Positions 619 through 19,140 of a stretch of DNA of 57,223 nucleotides are shown here, piece by piece. Below the pieces are notes generated by a model. The model saw only the letters and a program-made list of their open reading frames with translations. It did no database searches and was not told the origin of the DNA. Within the stretch, counting starts at the first letter, position 1. Each line of letters begins with the position of its first letter. Position numbers and translations under genes: made by a program. Source of the DNA: a candidate division WOR-1 bacterium RIFCSPLOWO2_02_FULL_46_20 (GTDB taxonomy: Bacteria; Margulisbacteria; WOR-1; O2-12-FULL-45-9); contig METP01000048.1 of NCBI GenBank assembly GCA_001771365.1, forward strand, positions 1 to 57,223, read 5' to 3'.

Positions 619-1344
619 ATGTTTAGAGAGATTTTGTTCAAAGTCTTCTGTTTTTCGGCGATCTTATCAGTTTTGACCTCGGCTTCTTTTGCCGATCGGC
701 GCTCTTATGTCTGGACATATGAATATGTCACGATGCCCCGCGGGATGGTGGAGGTCGAATATTACAATACGCTTGAATATCCCGACACGACCAACCCCAA
801 GGTCAATACCTGGAAGCACTGGGTGGAGCTCGAGTACGGCCTGACTGACAATTGGGATGTTAGCATGTACCAGACCTTCAAGCAGACCAATACCGCGGCG
901 GCCAACACGCTGTCGTATGACGGATTCAAACTGCGGACTCGTTACCGGCTGGGTGAAAGAGGGTCTAATCCGGTCGACATGCTATTGTATGCTGAATTGA
1001 TCGAGCCAAATGATCTAAGCAAAGCCGGCGTCTTCGAAGGTAAAGTCATCCTGGCCAAAGATATCCGGATGCTGAATTTCTCCTACAATTATATTATTAA
1101 GCGGGAGTTGACCGAGGCGGCCAAGACTGAGAACGAGTTCGCGGCCGGCGCCAGCGTCGAATTACGGCCGACTTTCAAAATCGGCCTGGAGGCCAAGGGC
1201 AATTATAGTACCGGCAAGCATTACGTCGGGCCGACGATTTCCTGGGCGCAGGAAAAATTCTGGCTGAATTTTGGCGCCGTAAGAGGCTTGGGCAATGGGG
1301 CAAATGATCTGCAAACGCGCCTGCTTATTGGTATTAATATTTAG
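619..1344 (+). CDS. Secreted outer-membrane beta-barrel protein, function unknown
   Basis: SD AAGGAGG, signal peptide ending SFA, alternating aromatic/hydrophobic beta-strand pattern, C-terminal strand RLLIGINI. Confidence 0.6.
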   Translation: MFREILFKVFCFSAILSVLTSASFADRRSYVWTYEYVTMPRGMVEVEYYNTLEYPDTTNPKVNTWKHWVELEYGLTDNWDVSMYQTFKQTNTAAANTLSYDGFKLRTRYRLGERGSNPVDMLLYAELIEPNDLSKAGVFEGKVILAKDIRMLNFSYNYIIKRELTEAAKTENEFAAGASVELRPTFKIGLEAKGNYSTGKHYVGPTISWAQEKFWLNFGAVRGLGNGANDLQTRLLIGINI

Positions 1345-1576
1345 TTCAGCTTTGCTGATCTCGGGCTGTGTTCCGGATGAGGAGCAGTCGGCGGCTTATA
1401 AGCTGTACAGCGCGAAGTGCAGTTCCTGCCACCGGCTGCTCCCGCCGGAGGATTATCCGCTGGAGAAGTTCGGTGAATATATCGAAAAATACGGCAAAGA
1501 GTTGACCCCGGAGGAGAAGACCCGGCTGCTTGATGGGTTGAGAGCCTATAAAAAGTTAAAGGAAGAACAAAAATGA
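1304..1576 (+). CDS. Small monoheme c-type cytochrome lipoprotein
   Basis: Lipobox ISGC and a single CSSCH heme-binding motif; start chosen at ATG 1304 (ORF track gives 1295). Confidence 0.7.
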   Translation: MICKRACLLVLIFSSALLISGCVPDEEQSAAYKLYSAKCSSCHRLLPPEDYPLEKFGEYIEKYGKELTPEEKTRLLDGLRAYKKLKEEQK

Positions 1577-2319
1577 AGCAATATGTGTCAACGATCATAA
1601 TGCTCTCTATGATCATCGCCCCGGCTCTGGCCTACCGGCCCTTCGGCACCGAAGACGCAGGTGTCGCCGGCAAAGGGGTGATCCAGTTTGAGGGAAGCTG
1701 GGATTATTTGCGCTGGAATGATGGCATGATCGAGAAGAATTATCTGTTCGTGCCGATCTACGGCGTGACCGATCAGCTGGAGCTGTCGGCGGAAATCCCG
1801 TACATGTATCATTATAACATTGGCGGTACATCCCCCAGTGGGGTCGGGGACATCAACCTGGTGGCCAAATATCTGCTGGTGGAGGAGGGGGTCAAAACTC
1901 CCGCTTTTGCACTGAAAGGGGTGGGCAAACTCGATAACGGTGATTTCAGCGCGGGACTTGGCAGCGGCGATAAGGATTGGAGCATTTTCGCGGTCGCGTC
2001 AAAAACTTTTGGGCGGGCGGTCCTGCATTCGCACGTCGGGTACACCTGGGTCGGCAAAAGCAAAGATGCGAATTTGCGCGACATTCCGCTCTTCGCGCTG
2101 GGCCTTGATTACGGCCTGACAGAACCGCTCCATCTGATCGCCGAAATTAACGGCAACCGCCATCCGGACAGCACGCAAACCGAATATCCCAGAAGCGCTC
2201 TTTTGGGGTTCACTTATAAAATATCAGAAAAGCTCATTTTTGACCTGGCCGGCAAGTGGGGGCTTTCAAACGCCAGCCCGGCCTGGGACGCGGCTTTCGG
2301 TTTTTCCGCGACGCTGTGA
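1573..2319 (+). CDS. Outer-membrane channel ('transporter', MetA-pathway/phenol-degradation-like beta-barrel)
   Basis: Signal peptide ALA, RPFGTEDAG N-terminal motif, SGVGDINL..KY, C-terminal FGFSATL strand. Confidence 0.7.
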   Translation: MKQYVSTIIMLSMIIAPALAYRPFGTEDAGVAGKGVIQFEGSWDYLRWNDGMIEKNYLFVPIYGVTDQLELSAEIPYMYHYNIGGTSPSGVGDINLVAKYLLVEEGVKTPAFALKGVGKLDNGDFSAGLGSGDKDWSIFAVASKTFGRAVLHSHVGYTWVGKSKDANLRDIPLFALGLDYGLTEPLHLIAEINGNRHPDSTQTEYPRSALLGFTYKISEKLIFDLAGKWGLSNASPAWDAAFGFSATL

Positions 2320-2342: not shown

Positions 2343-2738
2343 ATGCAAGAGTGCCACGGCAAAGTTAAGATAGATTTTTCGGGACTGAAGAAGATCTCCC
2401 TGGTCGGCAATCCCAACGTTGGCAAGAGCGTGATCTTCTCTCATCTAACAGACATTTACGTCACCGTTTCCAATTACCCAGGAACGACTGTTGAGGTTTC
2501 GCGGGGCGCCGGCACGATCGACCGCCAGAAGTTCGAAATCATCGACACGCCGGGCATGAACAATCTAATCCCGTCGTCCGAGGACGAAAAGGTGACAGTC
2601 GCGTACATTTTAACCCATAACCATCCGCGGCTGCGCAAGCTGATGTCGTTCGGCATCGCGCCGGGAGTAAAAATCCGCCAAACTGGCCGCATATCCCGGC
2701 GTGTCCCGGCCGCAAATTCCTGCTTGACAAAAGTTTAA
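2343..2738 (+). pseudogene. feoB: Truncated FeoB G-domain fused to a FeoA-like fragment (deletion remnant)
   Basis: GNPNVGKS (G1), VSNYPGTTVE (G2) and DTPG (G3), then an abrupt switch at SEDEKVT to VAYILTHNHPRLRKLMSFGIAPGVKIR (FeoA/SH3-like). No G4 motif and no membrane domain. Confidence 0.75.
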
Positions 2739-2769
2739 CATACTTTATAATATGACTAAATTAGTCGTA
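2724..2769 (+). promoter_or_regulatory. Consensus promoter plus palindromic Rrf2/IscR-type operator for the oxidase operon
   Basis: TTGACA 2724-2729, N16, TATAAT 2746-2751; palindrome TATGACTAAATTAGTCGTA 2751-2769. Confidence 0.7.
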
Positions 2770-2790
2770 AATAGCAGTGAAGGGGGAATT

Positions 2791-3348
2791 ATGAATGTTT
2801 TGTCGCTGGCCCTGTATCTTAGGATTTTTTACGCCGCGCTAGTTTTGATCGTTGTCTCCCTGATGGTTTTTTATGTCAGGGGCCTGACCACAAAAGGCGA
2901 AACATCGGGACGGCTCAAAGCCGTATTTTACGGTTGGCTCGGTTTTCTTGTCGCCGTCGCCATTCTTTTTCATCTTCTAACCGCCTGGCAGATACCCTGG
3001 GTGCGCTGGGAGATCAAACGGGCTGAAATCGTCCCCAACCGGGAATTCGCGCTCAACGCCAAACAACACCGGTTTACTTTGCCGGCCGGCGGCTTGAAAG
3101 TTCGTCAGGGTGAGGTGGTCAAATTTAAGGTCACTTCCTCTGACCTGACCTATGGCTTTGGCGTTTTTCATGAGAGCGGGGCGATGGAATTCCAGATGCA
3201 GGTCCTGCCCGGGCATTCTAACGAGATCATCTGGATTTTTAAGGATCCCGGTAAATATTCAATTCGCTCGACCGAATATGCCGGACCGGAAACCGAGCAA
3301 ATGTACCTGAAAGATTCCATAACCGTTCTGTCGGGGGAGGAAAAATAA
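2791..3348 (+). CDS. Heme-copper oxidase superfamily subunit II-like protein lacking CuA ligands
   Basis: Two TM helices plus a cupredoxin domain. SDLTYGF and STEYAGPETEQM occupy the DVxHGF and CxExCGxxHxxM positions. SD AGGGGG precedes ATG 2791. Confidence 0.8.
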   Translation: MNVLSLALYLRIFYAALVLIVVSLMVFYVRGLTTKGETSGRLKAVFYGWLGFLVAVAILFHLLTAWQIPWVRWEIKRAEIVPNREFALNAKQHRFTLPAGGLKVRQGEVVKFKVTSSDLTYGFGVFHESGAMEFQMQVLPGHSNEIIWIFKDPGKYSIRSTEYAGPETEQMYLKDSITVLSGEEK

Positions 3349-4932
3349 ATGATTTCACTTAAAGAATTAAATCCTTTGCAGAAAGTCACCCTCCGTTTTG
3401 TGGTTATCGCGCTGTTATTCTACGGCCTGACTGTGATCGAAGGGATGATGATGCGCGCCGTTCAGGTCAATATTCCCTTGCTGGAAGCTGAACATTTTTT
3501 TGCGGTCCTAAACGCCCATCCCATTGTGGGGATCTTTGGCTACAGCTTCATGCTGGTCATGGGGGCGTTTTACTTTCTGGTGCCGACGTTCACGAAAAAA
3601 GAGCTCTACAGCGTCTTCCTGGCCGAGCTCAACTGGCTGGTCATGGCAGCCGGGACGGGCATCGTTTGGCTAAGCAGTTTTATTTTCCACTACAGCGCCC
3701 TTTACACTAATTACTGGCCCCTGCCGGTCATTGGCTCGACCGGCGTAAGCCTCGGGCTTTACGCTCTCGGCATCCTTTTGATCATGATTGGTATCCTCAT
3801 CTTTTGTTTCAATCTTTTCGCGACCGTCTTTCATCGCGAGCCGGGTGACAAGCCGCTTTCGACCCTTATCATTTCCGCTTTCGGTCTGGACGGCTTCGTT
3901 AATATATTCAACCGTTTCCGTGGCCGGCCGGATAAAGTTGTTGAGCCGGATGTGCCGCTGCCGATCGTGGCCATCTTTCGCGGGACGATCGATACCGTGC
4001 TCGACGCTCTGGTCCTGGGCTCGGTCGCGATCGTTTTCCTGGTCTACGCCTTTTTTAAGCTGAAGGGCGCTACTCTCCCCACAACCTGGCTTGATCCGCT
4101 CATTTATAAGAATCTTTACTGGTGGGGGCTCGATCTGATCGCCGATGGCCTTGTTTTGATTTATGTGGCTGGCACCTGGTATCTCCTGGCCATGATCATC
4201 ACCGGCCGGCAGATCTTTATGCAGAATTTCGCGCGGGCGGCGCTTTTTGTCGAGCTGGTCGTTTCCTGGTTCGTCTGGAGCCATCATCTCCTCTCCGACC
4301 AGACCCAGCCGGTCATGATGAGGATCTTTTCCGGCGAAATGATCACCGCTTTTGAACTGGTTACCTCCGGCATCGCCGTTTTCCTGACGCTGGCTACCCT
4401 CTGGCAGGCGCGGCCGCTCAAAATGACCATGCCGTTAAAATTTTTATTGGGCGGCATCGTTGGCTTTGGCCTGGGCGTGCCGGCCGGCATTCTGCAGGCT
4501 GATCTTGGCATGAATCGTATTCTTCACAATACCCAGTGGGTGATAGGGGCGCACGCGCACATGCAGATTTTGGTCGGGCTCTCCTGCACTCTTTTTGCCG
4601 CGCTGTACGCGATCTTCCCGATGGTGACGAAGAGAGAAGTGAAGAGCGAATTCTTGTCGAATGTCCATTTCTGGTGCCAGATGGTCGGCGGCATCGGCAT
4701 GTCGGTCGCCATGGGGTTTGCCGGCTTGAATGGAATGCTCCGGCGGACGCTTTATATGGGTGACCCGACTTATCTCCAAGAGATGTACTTCGCGGCTTTC
4801 TTCGGGACTATTTTAGCCATAGGATACTTGGTGATGATGTACAATTTGATTTCCACTATCGGGATCCCATCATTGATATCTTTGTTCATCAGGCTGCCGT
4901 GGTCAAAAACGCAAAGTAATATCGCCTCGTAA
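3349..4932 (+). CDS. Heme-copper oxidase superfamily subunit I, atypical active site (probable NO reductase, gNOR-like)
   Basis: About 12 TM helices; NAHP, WSHH, AHAH and GMLRR conserved; helix VI reads YWWGLDLIAD instead of xWxxGHPxVY. Confidence 0.8.
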   Translation: MISLKELNPLQKVTLRFVVIALLFYGLTVIEGMMMRAVQVNIPLLEAEHFFAVLNAHPIVGIFGYSFMLVMGAFYFLVPTFTKKELYSVFLAELNWLVMAAGTGIVWLSSFIFHYSALYTNYWPLPVIGSTGVSLGLYALGILLIMIGILIFCFNLFATVFHREPGDKPLSTLIISAFGLDGFVNIFNRFRGRPDKVVEPDVPLPIVAIFRGTIDTVLDALVLGSVAIVFLVYAFFKLKGATLPTTWLDPLIYKNLYWWGLDLIADGLVLIYVAGTWYLLAMIITGRQIFMQNFARAALFVELVVSWFVWSHHLLSDQTQPVMMRIFSGEMITAFELVTSGIAVFLTLATLWQARPLKMTMPLKFLLGGIVGFGLGVPAGILQADLGMNRILHNTQWVIGAHAHMQILVGLSCTLFAALYAIFPMVTKREVKSEFLSNVHFWCQMVGGIGMSVAMGFAGLNGMLRRTLYMGDPTYLQEMYFAAFFGTILAIGYLVMMYNLISTIGIPSLISLFIRLPWSKTQSNIAS

Positions 4933-4939
4933 AACCCTC

Positions 4940-4982
4940 TTGACAAAATTACTTAATCTGGTATAATAAATACCAGATTAAG
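4940..4982 (+). promoter_or_regulatory. Consensus promoter overlapped by a perfect 13-5-13 inverted repeat (probable Rrf2 auto-operator)
   Basis: TTGACA 4940-4945, TATAAT 4962-4967; CTTAATCTGGTAT-aataa-ATACCAGATTAAG 4952-4982. Confidence 0.7.
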
Positions 4983-4985
4983 CTT

Positions 4986-5384
4986 ATGAAACTAACCCTA
5001 GCGGCGGAAAACTCAATTATGATCCTCTACTTCCTGACCAGGGAAGGAAAGAGATTGACGGTGGCCGAGCTGTCGCAAAAACTCGGCACCCCGGCCAACC
5101 ACATATACAAGCTGGTTCAGTCCCTGGTGCGCGGGGGATACGTGCGATCCTTTCAGGGAAAAGTAGGCGGGGTGGAGCTTGCCGCTAATCCCCATAAAGT
5201 TACGCTCAGCGAGATAATCGAACATTTGGAAGGCCCGATCAATCTCTCAAACTGCATTTTCCGCGAGAAAAATTGCATCTTTATCAAGAATTGCGTTTTG
5301 AAAGGCAAGCTGGCTGCAGCGGCGCAAAAATTGGTTGCGGTGCTGCGGCGGACCACAGTGCAGGATCTGGTTAACGAAAAATGA
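4986..5384 (+). CDS. Rrf2-family transcriptional regulator with three Cys (Fe-S sensing, NsrR/IscR-like)
   Basis: wHTH with S.QGKVGG, plus C-terminal CIFREKNCIFIKNC. Confidence 0.85.
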   Translation: MKLTLAAENSIMILYFLTREGKRLTVAELSQKLGTPANHIYKLVQSLVRGGYVRSFQGKVGGVELAANPHKVTLSEIIEHLEGPINLSNCIFREKNCIFIKNCVLKGKLAAAAQKLVAVLRRTTVQDLVNEK

Positions 5385-5402: not shown

Positions 5403-5654
5403 GTGAAGCAAATGGTAGAAGAAGATATTAAAAGCAGAATTATTCAATCTCTTGAGGGGATAAGGCCGGCTTTACAGTTTGATGGCGGTGACGTAGAATT
5501 GGTGGTGGTGGATGAGGTGGAAAAATCCGTCACAGTTCGGTTGCGGGGGGCCTGTGCGTGTTGTCCGGGCGCCCAGGCCACTTTGGAATACGGAGTAGCC
5601 AGGGCGATCAGGCAAGCGGTCCCGGAGATCAAAGAAGTAAAAGCGGTTATTTAA
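5403..5654 (+). CDS. Nfu/NifU C-terminal-domain Fe-S carrier
   Basis: IRPALQFDGGDVELV...LRGACACCPGAQATLEYGV. Confidence 0.9.
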   Translation: MKQMVEEDIKSRIIQSLEGIRPALQFDGGDVELVVVDEVEKSVTVRLRGACACCPGAQATLEYGVARAIRQAVPEIKEVKAVI

Positions 5655-5684: not shown

Positions 5685-6230
5685 ATGTTGCCGACAGAAA
5701 AATTGGAACAGGAACACGATGTTATTTTGAAGATGCTCAAAGTCATCCAGGCCGTATCCGGGAAAATTGAAGAAATCGATCAAAAAACCTTGAAGGATAT
5801 TATTGATTTCATCCGTACCTTTGCGGATCACTGTCACCATGCCAAAGAGGAAAAAATTCTATATGTTGAAGCGGAGAAACATGGTATCCCTAATGAGGGA
5901 GGGCCGATCGGAATGATGCTGGTCGAACATGATCAGGGGAGGGGTTATGTAAAAATGATGGATGAGGCTTTGCAGAAGGTTGGGAAAGGAGACAAAAAAG
6001 CGGCAAAACAATATAAAGAAAACGCCCTTCAATTCGTCGATCTGCTTGAACAGCACATCGGTAAGGAAAATCAGATTCTTTATCCAATGATTAATATGCA
6101 TCTCCCGGAAAAGCTGCAAAAGGTTATTTCTGATAGGTTTGAAAAGATGGAGAAAGAAGAAGTGGGGGAGGGAGTGCATCATAAGTATCACGCTTTGGTC
6201 GAGGAGATGGAGGTTAAGTTTTTGAAATAG
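5685..6230 (+). CDS. Hemerythrin-like (HHE) di-iron protein
   Basis: EH...HHAKEE...EH...HIGKENQILYP ligand pattern. Confidence 0.85.
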   Translation: MLPTEKLEQEHDVILKMLKVIQAVSGKIEEIDQKTLKDIIDFIRTFADHCHHAKEEKILYVEAEKHGIPNEGGPIGMMLVEHDQGRGYVKMMDEALQKVGKGDKKAAKQYKENALQFVDLLEQHIGKENQILYPMINMHLPEKLQKVISDRFEKMEKEEVGEGVHHKYHALVEEMEVKFLK

Positions 6231-7241: not shown

Positions 7242-8459
7242 ATGAAAAGATTTGGTGTTATTTTGTTGCTGGGCTTTTGGCTGTTGGGATTTGTTAAGCC
7301 GGTGTTCGCGCTGACGCTTGACGAAGCGGTCAGCCAGGCCAGGGAACACAATTCCGACCTCCTCTTTGCTCAAAAACAATGGGAATCAATAAGGGCAAAG
7401 GTTCCTCAAACTATTAGCCTGGCCGATCCCCGCGTCGGCGTGGAGTATGAACAAATTCCGTCTGGTTCGCGCAATCTCGAAGAGGGGATGAAAATGTATT
7501 CTTTTGAGCAAATGGTCATGTTTCCCGGAAAAATTTATGCCGAATGGCAGATGAGCGGAAAAGAAGCCGAAATGTTTTTCGCTCGCTACCAAGCGAAATT
7601 GAGAGAAATCATCAGCCAGGCCAAGGCCGCTTATTATGACTTATATTTGACTGATCGCTCAATTGCCGTTATGAATGAAGTTGCCGGTTTGTTGGATAAA
7701 ATTAAAAAGAGCGCCCAGGCAAAATATATGGTTGGGAGTGTTATGCAGATGGATGTCCTGCAGGCGAACATCGAATATCAATTAGTCAGCAATGACTTGC
7801 TGACCATGCGGCAGGAAAGAGGGGTTAAAGAAGCAAAATTAAAGGTGTTGCTTAGCCGAACAGATCATTCAACGATTGAAGTTGATCAGGATTTTTCTTT
7901 GCCCGCGACGATTGAGTCAGTGGAAAGATTAGAGAAAACGGCCAGCGCCAATCGGCCCGAATTGCTGGCCATGAAAGCCGAGCTGGAGATGAAGGATGCC
8001 GCCCACTTAAAATCAAAAATGGATTATTTTCCTGACACAATGCTGGGTGTCAAAAAACGGGTTGGAGATGGCTGGGATGCCATGTTCTCTTTTTCCCTTC
8101 CTCTATATTTCTGGAAACAAAGTTATGGGGTCAGTTCAATTGGGCTTGAACGCGAAGCCGCCAAGGCCGCTTTCTCTAACATGGAAAACATGACGCTCTG
8201 GGAAGTTAAAGAAGCTTATATTGCGGCGGACGCCGCGCGGCGAACTTATTTGCTTTACCAGGATAAAATTATTACTCAAAGCGAGCAAACCCTGAAGGCG
8301 GCTTTAAAAGCTTACCAGACCGGGACGGTCGATTTTCAGGCGCTTTTACTGGCAGAGAGAATGTATAAAGAAGCCAAGCTTAAGCTGTATGAGAACCAGG
8401 CGAACTATGGAAAGGCTCTGGCGGGGCTGGAGAGAATTATTGGCAAGGGGGTAAATTGA
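7242..8459 (+). CDS. TolC-family outer-membrane factor (CusC/CzcC-like)
   Basis: Signal peptide, LTLDEAV..A...N, coiled-coil repeats, first gene of an RND operon. Confidence 0.85.
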   Translation: MKRFGVILLLGFWLLGFVKPVFALTLDEAVSQAREHNSDLLFAQKQWESIRAKVPQTISLADPRVGVEYEQIPSGSRNLEEGMKMYSFEQMVMFPGKIYAEWQMSGKEAEMFFARYQAKLREIISQAKAAYYDLYLTDRSIAVMNEVAGLLDKIKKSAQAKYMVGSVMQMDVLQANIEYQLVSNDLLTMRQERGVKEAKLKVLLSRTDHSTIEVDQDFSLPATIESVERLEKTASANRPELLAMKAELEMKDAAHLKSKMDYFPDTMLGVKKRVGDGWDAMFSFSLPLYFWKQSYGVSSIGLEREAAKAAFSNMENMTLWEVKEAYIAADAARRTYLLYQDKIITQSEQTLKAALKAYQTGTVDFQALLLAERMYKEAKLKLYENQANYGKALAGLERIIGKGVN

Positions 8460-8460
8460 A

Positions 8461-9561
8461 ATGAAAAATCAGAAATCCGAATCCTCACCCCGTCCCTCGA
8501 CTCGCTTCGCTCGCTCGGGACACCCCTCTCCATCGAAGATGGAGAGGGGAATGAATTCTCCGCCGCAGGCGGAGAAGAAAGGGGTGAGGTGGGTTATTTT
8601 GCTTTGGGTTTTGGTCATTTTTGTTGCCGGCTGCGCCCCAACCCGGAAGACAGGTCATGAAGGCCATGAGCCGGGTAAGAAGATATTGTTTTACCGTAAT
8701 CCGATGAATCCGCAAATTACTTCACCCGTGTTCATGAAAGATTCAATGGGGATGGATTACGTGCCGGTTTATGAACAGGCCAAAGGAGCGGCAGAAGGTG
8801 AAATATCTATCAGTTCTGATGAGCAGAAGCTCATCGGAGTTAAAACCGAACGAGTGGGGCGGCGCCAACTTTATAAAGAGATTCGCACAGTTGGGACGGT
8901 GGCTTATGACCCGGAGCTTTACGTGGCGCAGGAGGAATATCTTGGCGCGCTTGGTTTGAGCGATGAAGCGCTTATTGAATCCGGCCAAAAAAGATTAATG
9001 ATATTGGGTTTGAATGATGAGCAGATCGGTAGGTTGCAGAAAGAGGGTAAAGCGCAGGAGAATCTTATTCTGCCTGAAGAAGAGACCTGGGTTTATATCA
9101 CGATCTATGAGAATGAACTGGGCTTGGTTAAGGCGGGCACACCGGTGGAAATTGACACGATTGCTTTCCCGGGTGAGGCCTTTTATGGGAAAATCGCGGC
9201 GGTTTCTCCGGTGCTGGATCCCATGACCAGATCAGCAAAAGCCAGAGCGGAAGTTCAAAATCCCGGCCAAAAATTAAAGCCGAATATGTACGCCAACGTG
9301 AAGATCAAGATTGATCTGGGCAGCCGGTTAGCGGTTGATGAAGAAGCGGTTATTAATACCGGTAAGCGAACCCTGGTGGTGGTGGCCAAAGGTTCCGGCA
9401 ATTATCTTAGCCGCGAGGTGAAGTTGGGACAGAAAGCTGATGGTTATTATGAAGTTTTGGGCGGGTTGAAAGAAGGAGAGATGGCCGTAACCACTGGTAA
9501 TTTTCTAATCGATTCGGAATCACGCTTAAAGTCTACTAGTGGTGGCGAACATCAGCATTAA
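8461..9561 (+). CDS. cusB: CusB-type periplasmic adaptor (efflux RND MFP); alternative start GTG 8584
   Basis: Heavy-metal-binding motif YRNPMNP...KDSMGMDYVPVY, LKPNMYA, GNFLIDSES; lipobox VAGC. Confidence 0.85.
   Translation: MKNQKSESSPRPSTRFARSGHPSPSKMERGMNSPPQAEKKGVRWVILLWVLVIFVAGCAPTRKTGHEGHEPGKKILFYRNPMNPQITSPVFMKDSMGMDYVPVYEQAKGAAEGEISISSDEQKLIGVKTERVGRRQLYKEIRTVGTVAYDPELYVAQEEYLGALGLSDEALIESGQKRLMILGLNDEQIGRLQKEGKAQENLILPEEETWVYITIYENELGLVKAGTPVEIDTIAFPGEAFYGKIAAVSPVLDPMTRSAKARAEVQNPGQKLKPNMYANVKIKIDLGSRLAVDEEAVINTGKRTLVVVAKGSGNYLSREVKLGQKADGYYEVLGGLKEGEMAVTTGNFLIDSESRLKSTSGGEHQH
8483..8589. repeat. Composite palindromic (REP/RPE-like) element inside the cusB 5' end
   Basis: Terminal IR CCTCACCCC/GGGGTGAGG enclosing hairpins 8492-8521, 8523-8549 (12-bp stem) and 8556-8576 (9-bp stem). 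Confidence 0.75.
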
Positions 9562-9564
9562 ATA

Positions 9565-12500
9565 ATGACGAAGCTAGTCGAATACATAATTGAGTTTTGC
9601 GCGAAGAACCGGCTGATAGTCCTTATCCTGGTCGGCGCTCTGACGCTGGGAGGGTTCTTTGCCCTGCGCCGCGTTCCCTTGGACGCTCTGCCGGACCTTT
9701 CTGACACGCAAGTTATTGTCTATTCCCAGTGGGACCGGTCCCCGGACATTATCGAGGACCAGGTAACTTACCCGATCATCACTTCACTCCTGGGCGCTCC
9801 CAAAGTCAAAGCGATCCGCGGGTTTTCTGACTTTGGCTTTTCCTATGTTTATGTAATCTTTGAAGATGGGACCGACATCTACTGGGCGCGCTCCCGCACC
9901 CTGGAATATTTAAACAAGATCGTTCCACTCCTTCCGGCGGGGGTCAAGACCGAATTAGGTCCGGATGCCACGGGCGTTGGTTGGATCTTCCAGTACGCAT
10001 TAGTTGATGAAACCGGCCAACATTCATTGGCTGATCTGCGCAGTTTCGAGGACTGGTACTTGCGCTATTATTTGCAATCCGTTCCCGGGGTGGCGGAGGT
10101 GGCTTCAGTCGGTGGTTTTGTCCGCCAGTATCAGGTCAATGTTGATCCTAGCGCTTTGCAAGCGTATAACATTCCCCTGATGCAGGTGGTTGAAAATATC
10201 CGTAAAAGCAACAATGATGTTGGCGGAAGATTGGTTGAATGGAGCGGGATAGAATATATGGTGCGGGGCCGCGGCTACATCAAAACCACGCAGGATATTG
10301 AAAAAATCGTCGTGGGCTCCGGCATGAATGGGGCGCCGGTCACGATTGGACAGCTTGGCCAGGTTACTTTGGGGCCGGAGATGAGGCGAGGCATTGCTGA
10401 ACTCAACGGCCAAGGGGAAGTGGCTGGCGGCATTGTGGTTATGCGCCACAAAGAGAACGCGCTGGATGTCATTAAGCGGATCAAGGCCAAGCTCAAAGAG
10501 ATCGAACCCGGGTTGCCTAAAGGGGTAAAGATCGTAACCACTTATGACCGCTCCGACTTGATCGAAGCCTCCATTGGTACCGTCCGCGACGCGCTTGTCC
10601 AGGAATTAATTATTGTCAGCTTAATGCTGATTTTCTTTTTATGGCATCTCCCTTCGGCCCTGATCCCTATCATCGGGTTGCCCATCGCGGTGCTGATCGC
10701 CTTCATTCCCATGAACTGGATGGGACTAACATCAAATATTATGTCGCTGGGCGGAATTGTGGTCGCCATCGGCGACATGGTGGACGCTTCGATCGTGCTG
10801 GTCGAGAATGTCCATAAAAGATTGGATGAATGGGCGAAGGGTTTGCGGAAAGGAACTCGTGAAAGCATTATGATCGGCGCGATGAAAGAGGTCGGCCCGC
10901 CGATCTTTACTTCACTCTTGGTTATGGCGATCGCTTTTATGCCGGTTTTTATGCTCGAGGCGCAGGAAGGGCGCCTTTTTAAGCCTCTGGCTTTCACCAA
11001 AAATTATTCTATTTTCTTTGCGGCGCTGCTGGCGATAACCTTGATTCCGGCGCTGATCATGATCTTTGTCCGCGGGAAGATAATCTCCGAAGATAAACAT
11101 CCGGTCAGTCAATTTTTGATCCGGCTTTATCGTCCAGTTGCCCTCTGGTCGATCAAGCACCGGAATCTGGTGGTAATAGGAGCGCTGGCCGGCATTCTGA
11201 TAACCGTGCCGATATTTTTAAAAATGGGTTCGGAATTTATGCCTCCTCTTTATGAGGGGAGCATTCTTTATATGCCGACGACACTGCCGGGGTTGTCGGT
11301 GACCGAAGCCTCCAGGCTGCTGCAGATTCAAGATAAGGTCTTAAAGTCTTTCCCTGAAGTGAATAGCGTTTTTGGCAAGGCGGGGAGGGCCGCGACATCG
11401 ACAGACCCAGCTCCTTTCTCCATGATGGAGACAACGGTGATCTTAAAAGATAAAAAACTTTGGCGCCGCGGGATGACCTACGAAAAACTTGTCGACGAAA
11501 TGGATAAAAAAATGAAAATTCCGGGAGTATCTAACGCCTGGACCATGCCCATCAAAGCCAGGAACGACATGTTGACGACTGGAGTGCGCACGCCAGTGGG
11601 TATCAAGGTCTATGGTTCCAATCTTGAAGAAATTGAACGCCTTGGTATGCAGCTGGAACAGGTTTTGAAAGAGGTCCCCGGAACGCGCAATGTCTTTGCG
11701 GAACGCGTGGCGGGCGGCTATTTCGTGGATTTTGATCTTAAGCGCGATCAGTTAGCGCGCTACGGCTTGACGGTTGACGACGCCAACATGATCGTTATGT
11801 CGGCTATCGGCGGTGAAAATGTTTCAACCGTCATCGCCGGCCGGGAGCGTTATCCGATCAACGTCCGCTACGCCCGGGAACTGCGGGGTGAGATCGACGA
11901 TTTGAGGCGGGTGTTGGTCCCCGTCATGAACGGGGCGCAAATCCCGATTTCCGAGATCGCGGACATTAATATCCGTTATGGCCCCGCTATGATCCGGGAC
12001 GAGAACGGACTGCTGGCCGGTTATGTTTATGTGGATATTGTCGGCCGCGACGTCGGGGGATATGTTAATGATGCCAAGAGAGCGGTGAGAGATAAAGTGA
12101 AATTACCTACAGGATATTCACTGGCCTGGTCCGGCCAGTATGAGTCGATGCAAAGGGTCGCTGACCGATTGAAACTCTTTGTCCCTTTAACTCTTTTCGT
12201 CATTTTCATCTTGTATTTCTTTACATTCGGCTCCATCATTGAAACCCTGATTATTATGCTTTCGGTCCCTTTTGCCCTGGTTGGCGGCATCTGGTATATA
12301 TATCTCTTGGGATACAATATGAGCATTGCGGTTTGGGTGGGGTTGATTGCCCTGGCGGGGGTGGCGGCGGAGACCGGCTCGATTATGATTGTTTACCTTG
12401 ATGAATCGTACGCCAGGCGTAAAGCAGAAGGAAAAATGAACAATCTGGCCGACCTTTACGAGGCGGTAATGGAGGGCGCTGTCCAGCGCCTGCGGCCGAA

Positions 12501-12699
12501 GCTGATGACGGTGGGGGCTAATATCTTCGGACTTATGCCGGTGATGCTGGCTGTGGGGATCGGTTCGGACGTGATGAAACGGATCGCCGCGCCGCTGATC
12601 GGCGGGCTGGTCTCCTCGACGATCTTGACGTTGGTCGTCCTGCCGGCGATCTATACCATCTGGAAAAACAAAACTGAAGTGCGAGGAGGTGAAGAATGA
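9565..12699 (+). CDS. cusA: CusA/SilA heavy-metal (Cu/Ag) RND efflux pump
   Basis: [57 protein letters not shown]; 1044 aa. Confidence 0.95.
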
Positions 12700-12977
12700 G
12701 AAATTTGCTTATTATTTTAATAGCGGGAATATTGTTGAGCGGATTAGCCTGGTACTTTATTGGTGGACACACAAACCAGCCGGCAACCATGCAAACGCAA
12801 AGTGAAATGTCTGGAGCGGCCGGGTCAGCAGGGACTGTAACCTGTCCGGTTACCGGGGGAAAAATTGAAGCGGCTAAGGCCTATGCCAAAACTGTTTATA
12901 AGGGGAAAACCTATTATTTCTGCTGTGCCGGCTGTCCGGAAGAGTTTAAGAAAAACCCGGAGAAATACGCTAAATGA
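12696..12977 (+). CDS. Membrane-anchored YHS/TRASH metal-binding protein
   Basis: CPVTG...[24 protein letters not shown]. Confidence 0.85.
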
Positions 12978-12991
12978 AGGGGAATTAAGAA

Positions 12992-13402
12992 ATGAAAAAA
13001 ACTATTTGCGGGATATTTATTGCGTTGCTCATGACCGCGGCCGGCTGGGCGGTGGATGTGACCAGAGAAGTTTCAATTATTGCCAGGCAATTTAACTTTC
13101 TGCCGGGTAAAATTGAAGTTGTCAAAGGGGTCCCCGTGAGGCTTTACCTGACAAGCTTGGATGTTACCCATGGCCTCTATATCGATAAGTTTAAGATCAA
13201 CCAGAAAATGGAAAAGGGTAAACTAACAGTTGTGGATTTTATCCCCGACGAAGCCGGGGAATATGAATTTAAATGTTCAAATTTCTGCGGGCTCGGGCAT
13301 GGCGGTATGAAGGGAGAACTGGTGGTGATTGAGCCGATGTCAGCAATGCCTAAAATGCCGGGGATGGAGGAAATGCAGCACAATATGCCAATGCATCATT
13401 GA
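12992..13402 (+). CDS. Secreted cupredoxin with CuA-type ligand set and Met/His-rich tail
   Basis: DVTHGL and CSNFCGLGHGGM; tail MSAMPKMPGMEEMQHNMPMHH. Confidence 0.8.
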   Translation: MKKTICGIFIALLMTAAGWAVDVTREVSIIARQFNFLPGKIEVVKGVPVRLYLTSLDVTHGLYIDKFKINQKMEKGKLTVVDFIPDEAGEYEFKCSNFCGLGHGGMKGELVVIEPMSAMPKMPGMEEMQHNMPMHH

Positions 13403-13897: not shown

Positions 13898-15175
13898 ATG
13901 ATTAGCGCTAAGCTCGTTTCTTTGCTGATTTTCGTTTCGGCCTACGCCTTGTTCGTTTTCTTTCCCAGGAAAAGGATGCAGGTCGCTGTCATTGGGGCGG
14001 CGGCGTTGATTTTGACCGGGGTCCTTTCTGTCCCGGAAGCATTTTTAGCGATAAATTGGAATGTCATGGGGATCTTTGTGGGGACACTGGTGGTGGCGGA
14101 TATTTTTATGGTCAGCCGTGTTCCGGCGTATCTGGCGGAAATCATTGTGGACCGGGCCAGGAATACCGCTTGGGCGGTTTTACTGATCTGCGTTCTGACC
14201 GGGTTTATTTCCGCTTTTGTTGAGAACGTGGCCACGGTTCTAATTGTCGCCCCCATTGCTTTCGCGCTGGCAAAAAAACTTAAAATTAATCCCACCGCCA
14301 TGATGATCGGGATCGCCGTTTCCAGCAATCTGCAGGGAGTTGCCACCTTAATCGGCGATCCTCCGAGCATGCTTTTGGGCGGATTTGCTAAAATGAATTT
14401 TATGGATTTCTTCTTTTATCAGGGCAGGCCCAGCATTTTCTTTGCCGTGGAACTGGGCGCGATCTGCTCGTTTCTGGTTTTATATTTTATCTATCGGAAA
14501 CACCGGGAAAAGACGCAACTCCTGCGGGTGGAGAAAGTGAAATCCTGGATCCCCACCATCATTCTGGTCAGCTTAATCTTTTTGCTGGCGCTGAGTTCAT
14601 TCATAGACACGGGGTTTTCTTATACTGCCGGGCTGCTCTGTATGATATTCGGCGGAATTTCTCTGGTCTGGGCGAAGGCGCACAGCAATAAGTCTCTCTT
14701 CGAGAGTCTGAAACCGCTGGATTGGGAAACGACGCTTTTCCTGATGGGAGTCTTTATTCTGGTCGGAAGCATTACTTCAACGGGCTGGATTGCGGTGATT
14801 TCTGACTTACTGGCCGGGATGGTCGGAGGGAACATCTTTTTCGGCTATATAACAATCGTTTTTATTTCAATTATTCTTTCGGCTTTTATTGACAATGTTC
14901 CCTTTCTGGTCGCCATGCTGCCGGTGGCAATGTCGATGTCGGAAAAATTGAGCGTTAGTCCATCTCTTTTCCTGTTTGGTTTGCTCATCGGGGCCAGCCT
15001 GGGCGGGAACATTACTCCGATTGGCGCATCGGCCAACATCGTTGCCTGCGGTTTACTGAAAAAAGAAGGTTACGAAGTTAAATTCGGGGAATTTGCTAAA
15101 ATCGGCCTCCCTTTCACGCTGGTCGCGGTCGTCGCGGCCTCTTCATTTATCTGGTTTGTCTGGGGAGTCAGATGA
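13898..15175 (+). CDS. ArsB/NhaD/SLC13-family anion permease
   Basis: SAFVENV, ATLIGDPP, SAFIDNVP, GGNITPIGASAN; multi-TM. Confidence 0.85.
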   Translation: MISAKLVSLLIFVSAYALFVFFPRKRMQVAVIGAAALILTGVLSVPEAFLAINWNVMGIFVGTLVVADIFMVSRVPAYLAEIIVDRARNTAWAVLLICVLTGFISAFVENVATVLIVAPIAFALAKKLKINPTAMMIGIAVSSNLQGVATLIGDPPSMLLGGFAKMNFMDFFFYQGRPSIFFAVELGAICSFLVLYFIYRKHREKTQLLRVEKVKSWIPTIILVSLIFLLALSSFIDTGFSYTAGLLCMIFGGISLVWAKAHSNKSLFESLKPLDWETTLFLMGVFILVGSITSTGWIAVISDLLAGMVGGNIFFGYITIVFISIILSAFIDNVPFLVAMLPVAMSMSEKLSVSPSLFLFGLLIGASLGGNITPIGASANIVACGLLKKEGYEVKFGEFAKIGLPFTLVAVVAASSFIWFVWGVR

Positions 15176-15588
15176 AATTTTCGATTAAAGTTCAATATGG
15201 TTTGCAGGCCATGTTGGATTTGGCGATAAAGTTTGGAGCCGGGCCGGTGCAAATAGCTGAAATTGCTAAAAACCAAAAGATTCCGGTTCGTTACCTCGAG
15301 CAGCTTATGCTTATTTTGAAGCGGAGGGGGCTGGTGGTCAGCTCACGAGGTAAGCATGGGGGCTATACAATAGTAAAGCATCCCAGTGATATTACGGTTC
15401 TGGAAATTATTGAAACTTTTGACGGGCCAATTGAGTTAACCAGCAAAAAGATGAAGATTATCCCCTTTTTGTATGAGATCTTTGAGAATATTCAAAAAGA
15501 TATTAATAAAGATTTGGCCGGCCTAACTTTAGAGGACCTGGTTTTTAAGAAAAGACAGAAAGAACGCTCTTATATTTACAATATTTAA
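15172..15588 (+). CDS. Rrf2-family regulator without Cys ligands (CymR-like)
   Basis: MKFSIKVQYGL, IPVRYLEQL, SSRGKHGGY, C-terminal YIYNI; no Cys. Confidence 0.85.
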   Translation: MKFSIKVQYGLQAMLDLAIKFGAGPVQIAEIAKNQKIPVRYLEQLMLILKRRGLVVSSRGKHGGYTIVKHPSDITVLEIIETFDGPIELTSKKMKIIPFLYEIFENIQKDINKDLAGLTLEDLVFKKRQKERSYIYNI

Positions 15589-16997: not shown

Positions 16998-17070
16998 TTC
17001 TATATCTCTAACCCCTCTCTAACTTTCTTCAACTAATCTAAAACAGTTAGTGTTGTTTGAAGTAATAATA

Positions 17071-17103
17071 GTAGTTGACAAAATCTGTCAAGTATATTAT
17101 GAT
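17071..17103 (+). promoter_or_regulatory. IscR type-1 operator overlapping the -35 of the iscR promoter
   Basis: GTAGTTGACAAAATCTGTCAAGTAT (17071-17095) fits 22/25 of ATASYYGACTRWWWYAGTCRRSTAT; TTGACA-N17-TATGAT. Confidence 0.8.
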
Positions 17104-17109
17104 GGTAGC

Positions 17110-17520
17110 ATGAAGTTATCAACCAGGGGAAGATACGCGGCGTCAGCCATGTTTGATATGGCTTGTTATGCCGGAGGAGAGCCTATAACCGCCGCGGTAA
17201 TTGCCGAAAGACAAAAAATATCTTTAACTTATCTTGAGCAGTTGCTGAATAGATTGAGGAAGAGCGGATTGGTTGAAACGGTGAGGGGGCCGTCCGGCGG
17301 ATATCTGCTGGCCAGGAAGCCGTCACAGATCAGTATTGGAGATGTTGTGAGAGCGGCTGATGGTCCCATTGCTTTGGCTGATTGTGTTGGTAAAGCAACC
17401 CATTGTCACAAAAGCGGTTGTTGCTCAACACGTTCTCTGTGGAAAACGTTAAGTAATAAAGTTTCCAAAGTTTTGGACTCAACAACTCTGGCAGATCTTT
17501 GTAAGGAGGCGAAAAGATGA
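17110..17520 (+). CDS. iscR: IscR-like Rrf2 Fe-S cluster regulator
   Basis: MKLSTRGRYA, ISLTYLEQL, VRGPSGGY, Cys cluster; heads the iscS-iscU operon. Start corrected from 17050. Confidence 0.85.
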   Translation: MKLSTRGRYAASAMFDMACYAGGEPITAAVIAERQKISLTYLEQLLNRLRKSGLVETVRGPSGGYLLARKPSQISIGDVVRAADGPIALADCVGKATHCHKSGCCSTRSLWKTLSNKVSKVLDSTTLADLCKEAKR

Positions 17521-18704: not shown

Positions 18705-18705
18705 A

Positions 18706-19140
18706 ATGGCTTCACCATATAGTGAAAAAGTAATGGATCATTTTCGTAATCCGCGGAATGTTGGGGAGATTGCCAATCCCGATGGGATAGGCAAGGTGGG
18801 CAACCCTGTTTGCGGCGATATTATGGAGATGTATATTAAAGTCAAAGATAACGTTATAACTGATGTAAAATTCAAAACCTTTGGCTGTGGCGCGGCTATT
18901 GCGACTTCTTCCATGGCAACAGAATTGATTAAAGGCAAAACTATTGAGGAGGCTTTGAACTTAACCAACAAAGCCGTGGCTGAAGCGTTGGATGGCCTGC
19001 CGCCGATTAAAATGCACTGTTCGGTCTTGGCCGAAGACGCGGTTAAAGGCGCAATAGATGATTATTTAAAGAAAACTACGGGCAAGGGGTTGCCAGGTTG
19101 GAAACCAAGAAACGAGGAAATACACGAGCATGGACATTAA
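18706..19140 (+). CDS. iscU: Fe-S scaffold IscU/NifU-N
   Basis: YSEKVMDHF.NPRN, GNPVCGD, FKTFGCG, LPPIKMHCS; start ATG 18706. Confidence 0.95.
   Translation: MASPYSEKVMDHFRNPRNVGEIANPDGIGKVGNPVCGDIMEMYIKVKDNVITDVKFKTFGCGAAIATSSMATELIKGKTIEEALNLTNKAVAEALDGLPPIKMHCSVLAEDAVKGAIDDYLKKTTGKGLPGWKPRNEEIHEHGH

What the first reader, a model, noticed from the sequence alone, without database searches (positions are those of the whole stretch)
2791..4932. Heme-copper oxidase with an Asp/Asp active site and a CuA-less subunit II: probable non-canonical NO reductase
Seen in subunit I: the heme ligands (NAHP, AHAH), the HH pair (WSHH) and RR are kept, but helix VI reads YWWGLDLIAD. Asp replaces both the metal-ligand His (4132-4134) and the cross-linked Tyr (4144-4146). 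Seen in subunit II: H>Y, C>S, C>A and H>T at the CuA positions, with a His in TM2. Known: O2 reductases need the His-Tyr crosslink, and NO-reducing branches replace it with Glu/Asn/Gln/Asp; from recollection, the little-studied gNOR family has a His>Asp change. Inference: a copper-independent, possibly quinol-fed NO reductase. The adjacent Fe-S Rrf2, Nfu and hemerythrin genes fit a nitrosative-stress module.
Basis: partly seen in the sequence, partly recalled or inferred. Interest (0 to 1): 0.8.

Follow-up and report, generated by a model that had tools for sequence, protein, structure and literature searches.

The report
gNOR-type nitric oxide reductase operon
These two genes encode a respiratory-oxidase relative with two aspartates at its metal site; it belongs to the published but never purified gNOR group of presumed nitric-oxide reductases, in a Saganbacteria genome where this enzyme was earlier read as a possible sign of oxygen respiration.

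Summary
Subunit I (3349-4932) keeps the heme and His-His ligands. Asp262 and Asp266 sit where ba3 oxidase has the CuB histidine and the cross-linked tyrosine. This motif is identical in 120 of 120 homologues. Subunit II (true start 2791) has no CuA ligand except the Met, as in 80 of 80 family members.

This is the already described gNOR family (Sievert/Hemp-Gennis 2008; Murali 2024): Asp for His, Asp at the Tyr position, CuA-less cupredoxin subunit. Homologues in the named gNOR hosts form one clade with it. No gNOR has been purified, so NO reduction remains a prediction.

The scan has met gNOR before in at least 8 other genomes.

New here:
1. The host is a WOR-1/Saganbacteria genome. A 2019 paper called this enzyme a "novel type" oxygen reductase. 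It lacks the residues O2 reduction needs and is the only heme-copper enzyme found in the genome.
2. The gNOR promoter carries a 17-bp palindrome also found on the promoter of a ygbA-Rrf2-ferredoxin-nrdD operon elsewhere in the genome, and on two promoters of a related genome. This points to NsrR-like, NO-responsive control.
3. The adjacent Rrf2-NifU-hemerythrin genes have their own promoter and a different operator.

Verdict: a new member of a known kind.

The parts
2724..2751 (+). Promoter of the gNOR operon: TTGACA, 16 nt, TATAAT (12 of 12 consensus positions)
   Evidence: scan; sequence. It is a consensus match only; no transcript data are available.
2752..2768 (+). Candidate operator ATGACTAAATTAGTCGT, directly after the -10 box. 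It has the same frame as the published NsrR motif (ATG-3-N5-3-CAT).
   Evidence: The same palindrome follows a consensus promoter at own-genome C64:6548-6564 and at two promoters of relative G123. The NsrR consensus gATGyAT-N5-ATrCATc is from PMC1274295.
2791..3348 (+). gNOR subunit II, 185 aa: two TM helices plus a cupredoxin domain without CuA ligands (Y, S, A, T at the H, C, C, H positions). It has an invariant His in TM2 (nt 2971-2973).
   Evidence: Upstream of subunit I in 80 of 80 loci.
3349..4932 (+). gNOR subunit I, 527 aa: heme ligands H57, H402, H404; metal ligands D262, H312, H313; D266 at the Tyr position; R465/R466.
4132..4146 (+). Codons D262 to D266 (DLIAD), at the positions of the CuB His and the cross-linked Tyr
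   Evidence: (HMMER alignment to ba3), (120/120).
3439..3495 (+). E31 and H49, at the positions of the E. coli bo3 quinol-site residues D75 and H98. H49 is 8 residues before the heme ligand H57, as H98 is before H106.
   Evidence: CyoB from NC_000913 aligned to A1; invariant in A1. Inference only; 2 of the 4 bo3 residues are matched.
4940..4982 (+). Second consensus promoter (TTGACA, 16 nt, TATAAT), overlapped by a perfect 13-nt inverted repeat CTTAATCTGGTAT-N5-ATACCAGATTAAG
   Evidence: No second copy of this palindrome was found in the genome.
4986..5384 (+). Rrf2-family regulator with C90-x6-C97-x5-C103
   Evidence: PF02082, E 3e-28. Best named NCBIfam match is NsrR at 63.6 bits, far under the 182-bit cut-off.
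5403..5654 (+). NifU-like (Nfu) Fe-S carrier domain protein
   Evidence: PF01106, E 6.6e-22.
5685..6230 (+). Hemerythrin HHE-domain protein with weak likeness to the di-iron Fe-S repair protein YtfE/RIC
   Evidence: PF01814, E 1.4e-21; NF008221 E 1.3e-6, under its cut-off.

Best explanation
This is a two-subunit gNOR, a branch of the heme-copper oxidoreductase superfamily. Subunit I holds a low-spin heme (H57/H404) and a high-spin heme (H402). The high-spin heme faces a non-heme metal bound by two His (H312, H313) and Asp262, with Asp266 beside it. This is a two-His/carboxylate site that should favour iron over copper (inferred). Subunit II is a membrane-anchored cupredoxin that cannot bind CuA, so electrons most likely enter from a quinol near E31/H49 of subunit I (inferred). 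The enzyme most likely reduces 2 NO to N2O. In this small, anaerobic, apparently heme-auxotrophic Saganbacteria genome it would serve NO detoxification. It would be switched on when an NsrR-like Fe-S repressor leaves a palindrome that overlaps the start of transcription. Shown: the family, the residues, their conservation, the operon layout and the shared palindrome. Inferred: the metal, the electron donor, the substrate and the regulator.
For: Family: PF00115. The D/D motif is identical in 120/120 homologues. The window copy keeps 158 of 158 positions that are at least 95% conserved in the other 119. The best solved relative by profile is B-family ba3, with D262 and D266 on its His and Tyr. 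The CuA ligands are replaced family-wide. In a 57-row tree, all 26 D/D rows form one clade (SH-aLRT 100), including homologues from Methylomirabilis, Sulfurimonas indica and Persephonella genomes, apart from the cNOR/qNOR-type and cbb3-type rows. The published definition matches. Link to NO: the palindrome ATGACTAAATTAGTC sits right after the -10 box of the gNOR promoter. In the own genome it recurs in the same position only before an operon that starts with a YgbA-family gene (NF007714, 108.3 bits, cut-off 88) and an Rrf2 with Cx6Cx5C, followed by a ferredoxin and nrdD. ygbA is NsrR-repressed in Salmonella and E. coli (PMC2884951). In relative G123 the palindrome precedes both gNOR and a DUF2249-NifU-hemerythrin-nrdD-HD-Rrf2 string, and that Rrf2 is 62% identical to the C64 one. 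Elsewhere, nitrate- and nitrite-related genes lie near gNOR: Mo-oxidoreductase in 13 of 80 loci, NIR_SIR in 10, formate/nitrite transporter in 5, heme d1 genes in 3-5. Quinol: a MenA-type prenyltransferase (TIGR00751, 104.8 bits, cut-off 102.15), a polyprenyl synthase, EtfBA/FixC and nuoABCDHI lie together on C64. E31 and H49 match bo3 D75 and H98.
Against: No gNOR has been purified or assayed; my searches found only sequence-based papers. The own genome shows no NO source: no cytochrome d1 and no molybdopterin oxidoreductase (the genome is 86% complete). NO would therefore have to come from outside. No HemB, HemC or ferrochelatase was found, so the hemes would have to be imported. No MqnA was found, and Men enzymes other than MenA were not searched, so a quinone pool is not shown. 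Only 2 of the 4 bo3 quinol-site residues are matched. The regulator of the palindrome is assigned by position only, and both Rrf2 proteins score far under the NsrR cut-off. The palindrome was not found before gNOR in the 80 other loci. One alignment of CyoB slipped by one residue in helix VI. A preprint (10.1101/592808) reports a His-to-Glu heme ligand in gNOR, which I do not see: H57, H402 and H404 are kept.
Confidence: 0.62

Rival explanations
1. It is a novel type of quinol-oxidising oxygen reductase and gives these Saganbacteria aerobic respiration. This is the reading of Matheus Carnevali et al. 2019, who themselves said that use of O2 was uncertain.
For: PMC6349859 (passages read) places the Saganbacteria enzyme beside a Methylomirabilis oxyfera enzyme of 'unknown type' and calls it a novel heme-copper oxygen reductase. 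It is the only PF00115 gene in the genome, and no cytochrome bd was found. It would be the only candidate oxidase found among the families searched. Some true oxidases show side activities with both gases (Murali 2024).
Against: The cross-linked Tyr and one of the three CuB His residues are both Asp in 120/120 members. Murali 2024 states that O2 reduction in this superfamily requires the redox-active Tyr. The M. oxyfera relative is named gNOR, Damo_1118-1119, in PMC6094997. The operon shares its operator with a ygbA-Rrf2 operon. nrdD, which encodes an oxygen-sensitive enzyme (my own knowledge), is co-regulated with it.
Confidence: 0.08
2. It is a real, conserved redox enzyme, but its substrate is neither NO nor O2. 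Candidates are N2O, peroxide, nitroxyl, or a sulfur or other small-molecule species met in sulfidic habitats.
For: The 2-His/2-Asp site has no characterised counterpart in the superfamily. The Murali preprint and paper say gNORs are found mainly in sulfidic environments. The function rests on analogy and on a bioinorganic mimic cited by Murali 2024. A conserved 200-aa membrane protein of no known family follows gNOR in 60 of 80 loci.
Against: Nitrate, nitrite and heme d1 genes neighbour gNOR in a minority of loci. The operator is shared with an NO-regulon marker gene. M. oxyfera, which makes NO as an intermediate, keeps a copy.
Confidence: 0.22
3. It is a decaying or non-catalytic oxidase remnant acquired by transfer.
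For: The distribution in the phylum is patchy: 3 of 146 genomes. A broken feoB/feoA remnant lies directly upstream. The genome appears to lack heme synthesis. Subunit II departs from the family at 4 of 36 conserved positions, including Arg140 to His, which 79 of 79 others keep.
Against: Both frames are intact. Subunit I keeps 158 of 158 conserved positions. The two Saganbacteria orthologues are 89% and 82% identical. There is a consensus promoter, a ribosome-binding site and an operator.
Confidence: 0.03

Closest known systems
gNOR family of the heme-copper oxidoreductase superfamily (Sievert et al. 2008 and Hemp & Gennis 2008, as cited in PMC8756737; Murali et al. 2024, PMC11214002; M. oxyfera Damo_1118-1119, PMC6094997)
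   Same: Asp for the helix-VI metal His, Asp at the Tyr position, a cupredoxin subunit II without CuA ligands, and the subunit II to subunit I gene order. It is 52-75% identical to homologues in Methylomirabilis, Sulfurimonas, Sulfurovum and Persephonella records, and forms one clade with them.
   Different: The host is WOR-1/Saganbacteria, with only 3 of 146 genomes of the phylum carrying it. There is no nitrite or nitrate reductase in the genome. It lacks the 200-aa downstream membrane protein seen in 60 of 80 loci. It has Rrf2/NifU/hemerythrin neighbours and an NsrR-like palindrome on its promoter.
ba3 cytochrome c oxidase of Thermus thermophilus (B family; PDB 1EHK, 3S8F)
   Same: Closest solved relative by sequence profile for both subunits (E about 1e-12 and 1e-7). 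Same helix VI-X register, same His-His pair, heme ligands and Arg pair.
   Different: ba3 has His233 and Tyr237 where this enzyme has D262 and D266. ba3 has a full CuA site, takes electrons from cytochrome c and reduces O2.
E. coli cytochrome bo3 ubiquinol oxidase (CyoAB)
   Same: Subunit II without CuA, with quinol as donor. D75 and H98 of CyoB correspond to E31 and H49 here, and the 8-residue spacing to the heme-b ligand is the same.
   Different: bo3 keeps the full CuB His3-Tyr site (H284, Y288, H333, H334; checked) and reduces O2. R71 and Q101 have no clear counterpart here.
cNOR / qNOR (NorB, NorZ)
   Same: The proposed reaction, and a non-heme metal with carboxylate ligation beside a high-spin heme.
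   Different: These use three His plus Glu (HLWVE motif in the rows). They form a separate, distant clade. cNOR has a heme-c subunit, and qNOR is a single fused chain of about 770 aa.
NsrR regulon of Proteobacteria and Firmicutes (hmp, ytfE, ygbA, hcp; Rodionov 2005 PMC1274295; Gilberthorpe 2007 PMC2884951)
   Same: An Rrf2 repressor with three Cys. A 17-bp ATG..CAT palindrome with the same half-site spacing overlaps the promoter. A ygbA-family gene is a member, and an NO reductase is a target (as for norB in Neisseria, from my own knowledge).
   Different: The half-site is ATGACT rather than ATGyAT. The regulator scores far under the NsrR cut-off. The regulon includes nrdD. None of this has been tested experimentally.

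Membership tests
gNOR | Heme-copper superfamily subunit I with both heme ligand sets and the helix-VII His-His pair kept | tested here: met
   PF00115, E 2.7e-53. H57, H312, H313, H402 and H404 are kept in 119-120 of 120. The AF2 model has pLDDT 85.2; Foldseek TM 0.75-0.78 to oxidase subunit I.
gNOR | One active-site His replaced by Asp (Murali 2024) | tested here: met
   D262 aligns to ba3 His233 and to the His of 31 other HCO rows. 120/120 in the family.
gNOR | Asp at the position of the cross-linked Tyr (PMC8756737 appendix table) | tested here: met
   D266 aligns to ba3 Tyr237. 120/120.
gNOR | [quoted passage not shown] | tested here: met
   Profile A2 against the ba3 CuA domain. There is no Cys or His at the ligand positions in 80 of 80.
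gNOR | One clade with the enzymes of the named gNOR hosts (M. oxyfera, Sulfurimonas, Sulfurovum, Persephonella) | tested here: met
   75% identical to a Methylomirabilis sp. record and 52-58% to the others. All 26 D/D rows form one clade, SH-aLRT 100. Damo_1118-1119 itself was not fetched by name.
gNOR | Conserved quinol-binding residues (stated by Murali 2024, residues not named in the text I could read) | tested here: inconclusive
   E31 and H49 match bo3 D75 and H98, but R71 and Q101 do not. The supplements are closed.
gNOR | NO reductase activity | not testable with these tools
   Not shown for any member in the papers found.
O2-reducing heme-copper oxidases (A, B, C families) | Three-His CuB site with a His-Tyr cross-link | tested here: not met
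   Both helix-VI residues are Asp, and helix VI contains no His.
cNOR / qNOR | Three His plus Glu at FeB (HLWVE), and a clade near the C family | tested here: not met
   Motif and tree.
NsrR-type regulon | Rrf2 repressor with three Cys, plus a palindromic operator on NO-stress promoters | tested here: inconclusive
   Palindrome found at 2 own-genome and 2 G123 promoters. A YgbA-family gene and a Cx6Cx5C Rrf2 lie downstream. The NsrR model scores 60.5 bits against a cut-off of 182. Binding is untested.

The most novel reading that the evidence does not exclude
In these Saganbacteria, gNOR may be more than a detoxifier. It may be the main terminal quinol oxidase of a minimal chain (ferredoxin- or ETF-fed Nuo-like complex, MenA-made naphthoquinone, gNOR). 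It would conserve energy through an invariant polar stripe (D266, E302/S306 in helix VII, T333/E336/T339 in helix VIII) that acts as a cytoplasmic proton path. Exogenous NO, not O2, would then be the respiratory acceptor in a lineage next to Cyanobacteria, using scavenged heme and a 2-His/2-Asp iron site unlike any characterised NOR.
Probability: 0.15. Interest if true: 0.7.

Novelty: new member of a known kind. Interest (0 to 1): 0.38.

Why it matters
The enzyme family is already on record, so the family assignment itself is not new. Three things add value.

First, a widely cited account of lineages beside Cyanobacteria counted this enzyme as a possible oxygen reductase and spoke of aerobic Saganbacteria. 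It lacks the residues needed for O2 reduction and matches gNOR, which removes that support for O2 respiration there. I found no held paper that says so.

Second, the shared promoter palindrome gives a concrete, testable link between a gNOR and an NO-sensing type of regulon. This is independent evidence for a function nobody has measured.

Third, gNOR remains an attractive target for testing how a 2-His/2-Asp site reduces NO. It is in 591 of the 599 genome stretches examined, is said to be common in sulfidic habitats, and is relevant to N2O budgets.

Tried and rejected
1. Single-sequence phmmer against the PDB gave only one weak cbb3 hit (E 8.5e-6). The profile search was needed.

2. Foldseek on the AF2 model confirms the fold but does not separate families; the top hits are A-family. 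Model coordinates are not readable from scripts, so no metal-site distances were measured.

3. My quick tree (LG+G4, SH-aLRT only) puts gNOR in an unresolved three-way split with the A/B-type rows. It does not itself show descent from the B family. Four fragmentary rows were dropped before building: Mmir_548frag, Mmir_458, P0212 and P0189.

4. I tested adjacency of Rrf2/NifU/hemerythrin as a family-wide trait. Neighbours like the window's own appear in 1 of 80 loci (L007). Other Rrf2 genes lie near gNOR in 4 more loci.

5. The palindrome on the Rrf2 (4986) promoter has no second copy in the genome.

6. The gNOR palindrome was not found upstream of gNOR in the 80 other loci. Four further order-wide pattern hits lie inside genes without a promoter and were judged chance.

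7. No RNA holder was listed for the stretch, and no reads were laid.

8. The supplements of Murali 2024 (residue tables, taxon lists) are closed. They may already list Margulisbacteria/Saganbacteria among gNOR hosts and name the quinol and channel residues.

9. I did not run complex prediction. A subunit I-II pair would pass by likeness to solved oxidases and add nothing.
Full report
**What is there.** Window 2752-4932 holds two tightly joined plus-strand ORFs. The second (3349-4932, 527 aa) matches Pfam COX1 at E 2.7e-53. The first gives only a weak CoxB match (TIGR02866, E 1.5e-7, far under its cut-off).

A perfect consensus promoter (TTGACA, 16 nt, TATAAT) ends at 2751, so the ATG at 2752 abuts the -10 box. 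The next ATG, at 2791, follows aagggggaatt. The orthologue in relative G123 is 185 aa and starts at the equivalent Met. Subunit II residue numbers below still count from 2752.

The best 120 of 3048 homologues (E <= 1e-5 among 8000 scored candidates) were aligned.
- G260, L261, D262, L263, A265, D266, G267, L268 and V269 are identical in 120 of 120.
- H312, H313, H402 and H404 are kept in 120/120, and H57 in 119/120 with one gap.

I picked 41 of the 120 for profile A1. Against all PDB sequences it hit 26 distinct chains at E <= 0.01. The top 18 are Thermus thermophilus ba3 and its mutants (E 8.9e-13 to 8.3e-12), followed by E. coli bo3. HMMER lays ba3 FWWTGHPIVYFW on YWWGLDLIADGL without a gap, so the CuB His is D262 and the cross-linked Tyr is D266. 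A separate 61-sequence MAFFT alignment gives the same pairing against every His...Tyr, His...Asn and His...Glu relative.

One contrary result: adding E. coli CyoB with mafft --add shifted this segment by one residue, putting D262 opposite P285. Read directly, helix VI of the window protein has no His, so no alternative His/Tyr pair exists.

The window copy keeps 158 of 158 positions that are at least 95% conserved in the other 119 proteins. It is not a decaying copy.

**Subunit II.** Family profile A2 (33 of the 80 sequences) matches the ba3 CuA domain (E 1.7e-9 to 7.8e-7). It aligns as follows:
- His114 to Y134
- Cys149 to S173
- Cys153 to A177
- His157 to T181
- Met160 to M184

In 80 members, Tyr and Ser are 80/80, position 177 is Ser 78 and Ala 2, position 181 is never His, Met is 73/80, and the TM2 His (H74) is 79/80. 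The window departs from the family at 4 of 36 conserved subunit II positions. Ala177 is shared with G123. Arg140 to His is its own.

**What it is.** Three papers define the family.
- Murali et al. 2024 (PMC11214002; abstract and passages read) describe gNOR as the first heme-copper family that has replaced an active-site His with Asp. Its cupredoxin subunit lacks the CuA residues, it may oxidise quinol, and it has not been characterised.
- PMC8756737 (appendix table) lists Asp at the Tyr position for gNOR and names Sulfurimonas, Sulfurovum and Persephonella as hosts.
- PMC6094997 names Damo_1118-1119 of M. oxyfera as gNOR.

In one genome per species, 591 of 599 matched stretches encode a relative. 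The best is a Methylomirabilis sp. record at 75% identity. Sulfurimonas, Sulfurovum, Nitratiruptor and Persephonella records lie at 52-58%.

The family is compact. In the 50%-identity library, only two full-length representatives are close (53% and 48%), and the next full-length hit is 26% identical.

I built a 57-row tree from three sources:
- 21 family members
- 24 other full-length representatives
- 12 heme-copper ORFs from five gNOR-bearing genomes

Four fragments were dropped. All 26 D/D rows form one clade (SH-aLRT 100), apart from the HLWVE (cNOR/qNOR-type) and cbb3-type rows. The window is sister to one metagenome protein and next to the Methylomirabilis group. This quick tree leaves the link to the B family unresolved.

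All sequence-defined features of gNOR were tested and met. The activity cannot be tested here.

**Host and the literature.** The 90%-identity cluster of the window protein includes a record named candidate division WOR-1. Earlier scan notes on this genome also say Saganbacteria/Margulisbacteria.

Matheus Carnevali et al. 2019 (PMC6349859; passages read) reported in Saganbacteria HO1A and LO2A a "novel type" quinol-oxidising heme-copper oxygen reductase. They placed it close to an M. oxyfera enzyme "of unknown type" and spoke of aerobic Saganbacteria, while noting that O2 use was uncertain. That enzyme is gNOR.

The main text of Murali 2024 mentions neither Saganbacteria nor Margulisbacteria. 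None of the 4 held papers that contain both "Saganbacteria" and "nitric oxide reductase" appeared from their listed titles and abstracts to make the link; I did not open them for this. The supplements, which I could not open, may list the taxon.

In the phylum, 3 of 146 genomes carry the gene, and 0 of the 72 high-quality ones do. This fits acquisition by transfer, probably from or with the NC10 group.

**The genome around it.** G000 is 1.37 Mb and 86% complete. Absences are therefore provisional.

Found:
- NuoH, inside a nuoABCDHI run. Upstream of it lie EtfB, EtfA, FixC, a MenA-type prenyltransferase (TIGR00751, 104.8 bits against a cut-off of 102.15) and a polyprenyl synthase.
- An SdhA/FrdA-like gene.

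Not found:
- Any other PF00115 gene; gNOR is the only one
- Cytochrome d1, molybdopterin oxidoreductase, cytochrome bd and MqnA
- HemB, HemC and ferrochelatase

A small quinone-linked chain is plausible. The organism is not a denitrifier and probably imports heme.

**Regulation, the main addition.** Directly after the -10 box of the gNOR promoter lies ATGACTAAATTAGTCGT (2752-2768). In the whole genome, a 17-mer within one or two changes and in the same position, flush with a TTGACA-N17-TATAAT promoter, occurs once more, at C64:6548-6564. The spacers of the two promoters differ, so this is not a copied module.

The C64 site precedes four genes:
- a 97-aa YgbA-family protein (PF11756, E 8.5e-25; NF007714, 108.3 bits against a cut-off of 88)
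- an Rrf2 regulator with Cx6Cx5C
- a 4Fe-4S protein
- nrdD

In relative G123 the palindrome follows consensus promoters before gNOR and before a string of DUF2249, NifU, hemerythrin, nrdD, HD, Rrf2 and a rubrerythrin-like gene. That Rrf2 is 62% identical to the C64 one, but only 30% identical to the window's 4986 Rrf2.

Four other pattern hits in the order lie inside genes without promoters.

ygbA is repressed by NsrR in Salmonella and E. coli (PMC2884951). The published NsrR motif is gATGyAT-N5-ATrCATc (PMC1274295). It has the same ATG-3-N5-3-CAT frame as ATGACT-N5-AGTCAT.

I infer that an NsrR-like Fe-S repressor, most likely the C64 Rrf2, controls gNOR. Binding is untested, and both Rrf2 proteins score far under the NsrR model cut-off.

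Rrf2 (4986-5384), NifU (5403-5654) and hemerythrin (5685-6230) are real. They have their own 12/12 promoter (4940-4967), overlapped by a different, perfect 13-nt inverted repeat that is unique in the genome.

NifU plus hemerythrin beside gNOR recur in G123 and in one Omnitrophica record (L007). They do not recur in the third Saganbacteria genome, where multiheme cytochromes and an NrfCD-like complex follow instead.

Across 80 other loci, the neighbours are different:
- an unknown 200-aa membrane protein downstream, in 60 loci
- Mo-oxidoreductase genes, in 13 loci
- NIR_SIR genes, in 10 loci
- MFS genes, in 13 loci
- formate/nitrite transporter genes, in 5 loci
- heme d1 genes, in 3-5 loci

**How it most likely works.**
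- Shown: heme ligands, the His-His pair and two invariant Asp residues one helical turn apart on helix VI; no CuA site.
- Inferred, metal and substrate: the 2-His/carboxylate set binds iron, as FeB in cNOR does with three His plus Glu. Two NO are reduced to N2O.
- Inferred, electron donor: electrons come from a quinol near E31/H49. These residues align with bo3 D75 and H98, and H49 has the same 8-residue spacing to the heme ligand.
- Inferred, proton path: invariant E302/S306 (helix VII) and T333/E336/T339 (helix VIII) could form a cytoplasmic proton path below D266. Murali's preprint notes conserved residues in gNOR that do not map to the B-type channel.

**Verdict.** This is a correct reading of a known, uncharacterised family. 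It is a new member in an unexpected host, with a useful correction to the literature and a testable regulatory link. The scan has reported gNOR in at least 8 other genomes, two of them with an Rrf2 and an operator.

Noticed in passing
window 2343-2738 (+): A 131-aa ORF made of the first about 78 residues of a FeoB G-domain fused to a FeoA fragment. It matches two separate places of an intact feo locus on contig C7 (70% and 65% identity, 2.3 kb apart). It looks like a deleted copy, that is a remnant, right upstream of the gNOR promoter.
   Followed up: partly
window 12696-13399 (+): A stand-alone 136-aa secreted cupredoxin with a complete CuA-type ligand set (H...CxxxCxxxHxxM) and a Met/His-rich tail. 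It lies beside a YHS-domain protein and a CusCBA-like efflux system (7242-12696). It is probably copper handling, but it is the only CuA-type site found in the window, while the oxidase-like enzyme has none.
   Followed up: partly
window 619-2319 (+): Two outer-membrane barrel-like proteins (one matches PF13557) flank a 93-aa lipoprotein with a single CSSCH heme-c motif. No relatives were found in the 80 gNOR loci. This may be relevant because the genome lacks HemB, HemC and ferrochelatase and so must obtain heme somehow.
   Followed up: no
G000 contig C64, about 11.7-21 kb (locus L102): EtfB, EtfA, FixC, a MenA-type prenyltransferase with an extra N-terminal region of about 170 aa, a polyprenyl synthase, then nuoA-B-C-D-H-I with no nuoEFG between D and H. 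This is a compact quinone-linked module in an otherwise fermentative-looking small genome.
   Followed up: partly
loci L008-L079, just downstream of subunit I (e.g. L022:5348-5953): A protein of about 200 aa with two predicted membrane helices and no Pfam match follows gNOR on the same strand in 60 of 80 loci (Campylobacterota, Aquificota and others). It is absent from the window, the NC10, Nitrospiria and Omnitrophica loci. It may be a third subunit or an assembly factor.
   Followed up: partly
loci L008, L011, L027, L029, L046, L048, L062, L063; and L052, L056, L064, L074, L076, L079 (within 160 nt upstream of subunit II): Two other recurring perfect palindromes stand before gNOR in Campylobacterota and relatives: TGATTA-N5-TAATCA (8 loci) and TGTATA-N5-TATACA (6 loci). 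They are candidate operators of other regulators.
   Followed up: no
proteins P0158 and P0200: Two distant heme-copper relatives group loosely near gNOR and have odd sites. One reads WWGLHSYVNQ with Tyr at the high-spin heme ligand position. The other has Arg and Gln at the His and Tyr positions and HWQH in place of the His-His pair. Their families were not identified.
   Followed up: no
window 15172-15585 and 17050-19137 (+): Two further Rrf2 genes. The second heads an IscR-like, cysteine desulfurase, IscU operon. With the C64 copy, the genome has at least four Rrf2 regulators in 1.37 Mb.
   Followed up: no
window 50175-50802 (+): A nucleotidyltransferase plus HepT-like RNase pair (MNT/HEPN-type toxin-antitoxin) lies between the cysteinyl- and seryl-tRNA synthetase genes.
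   Followed up: no
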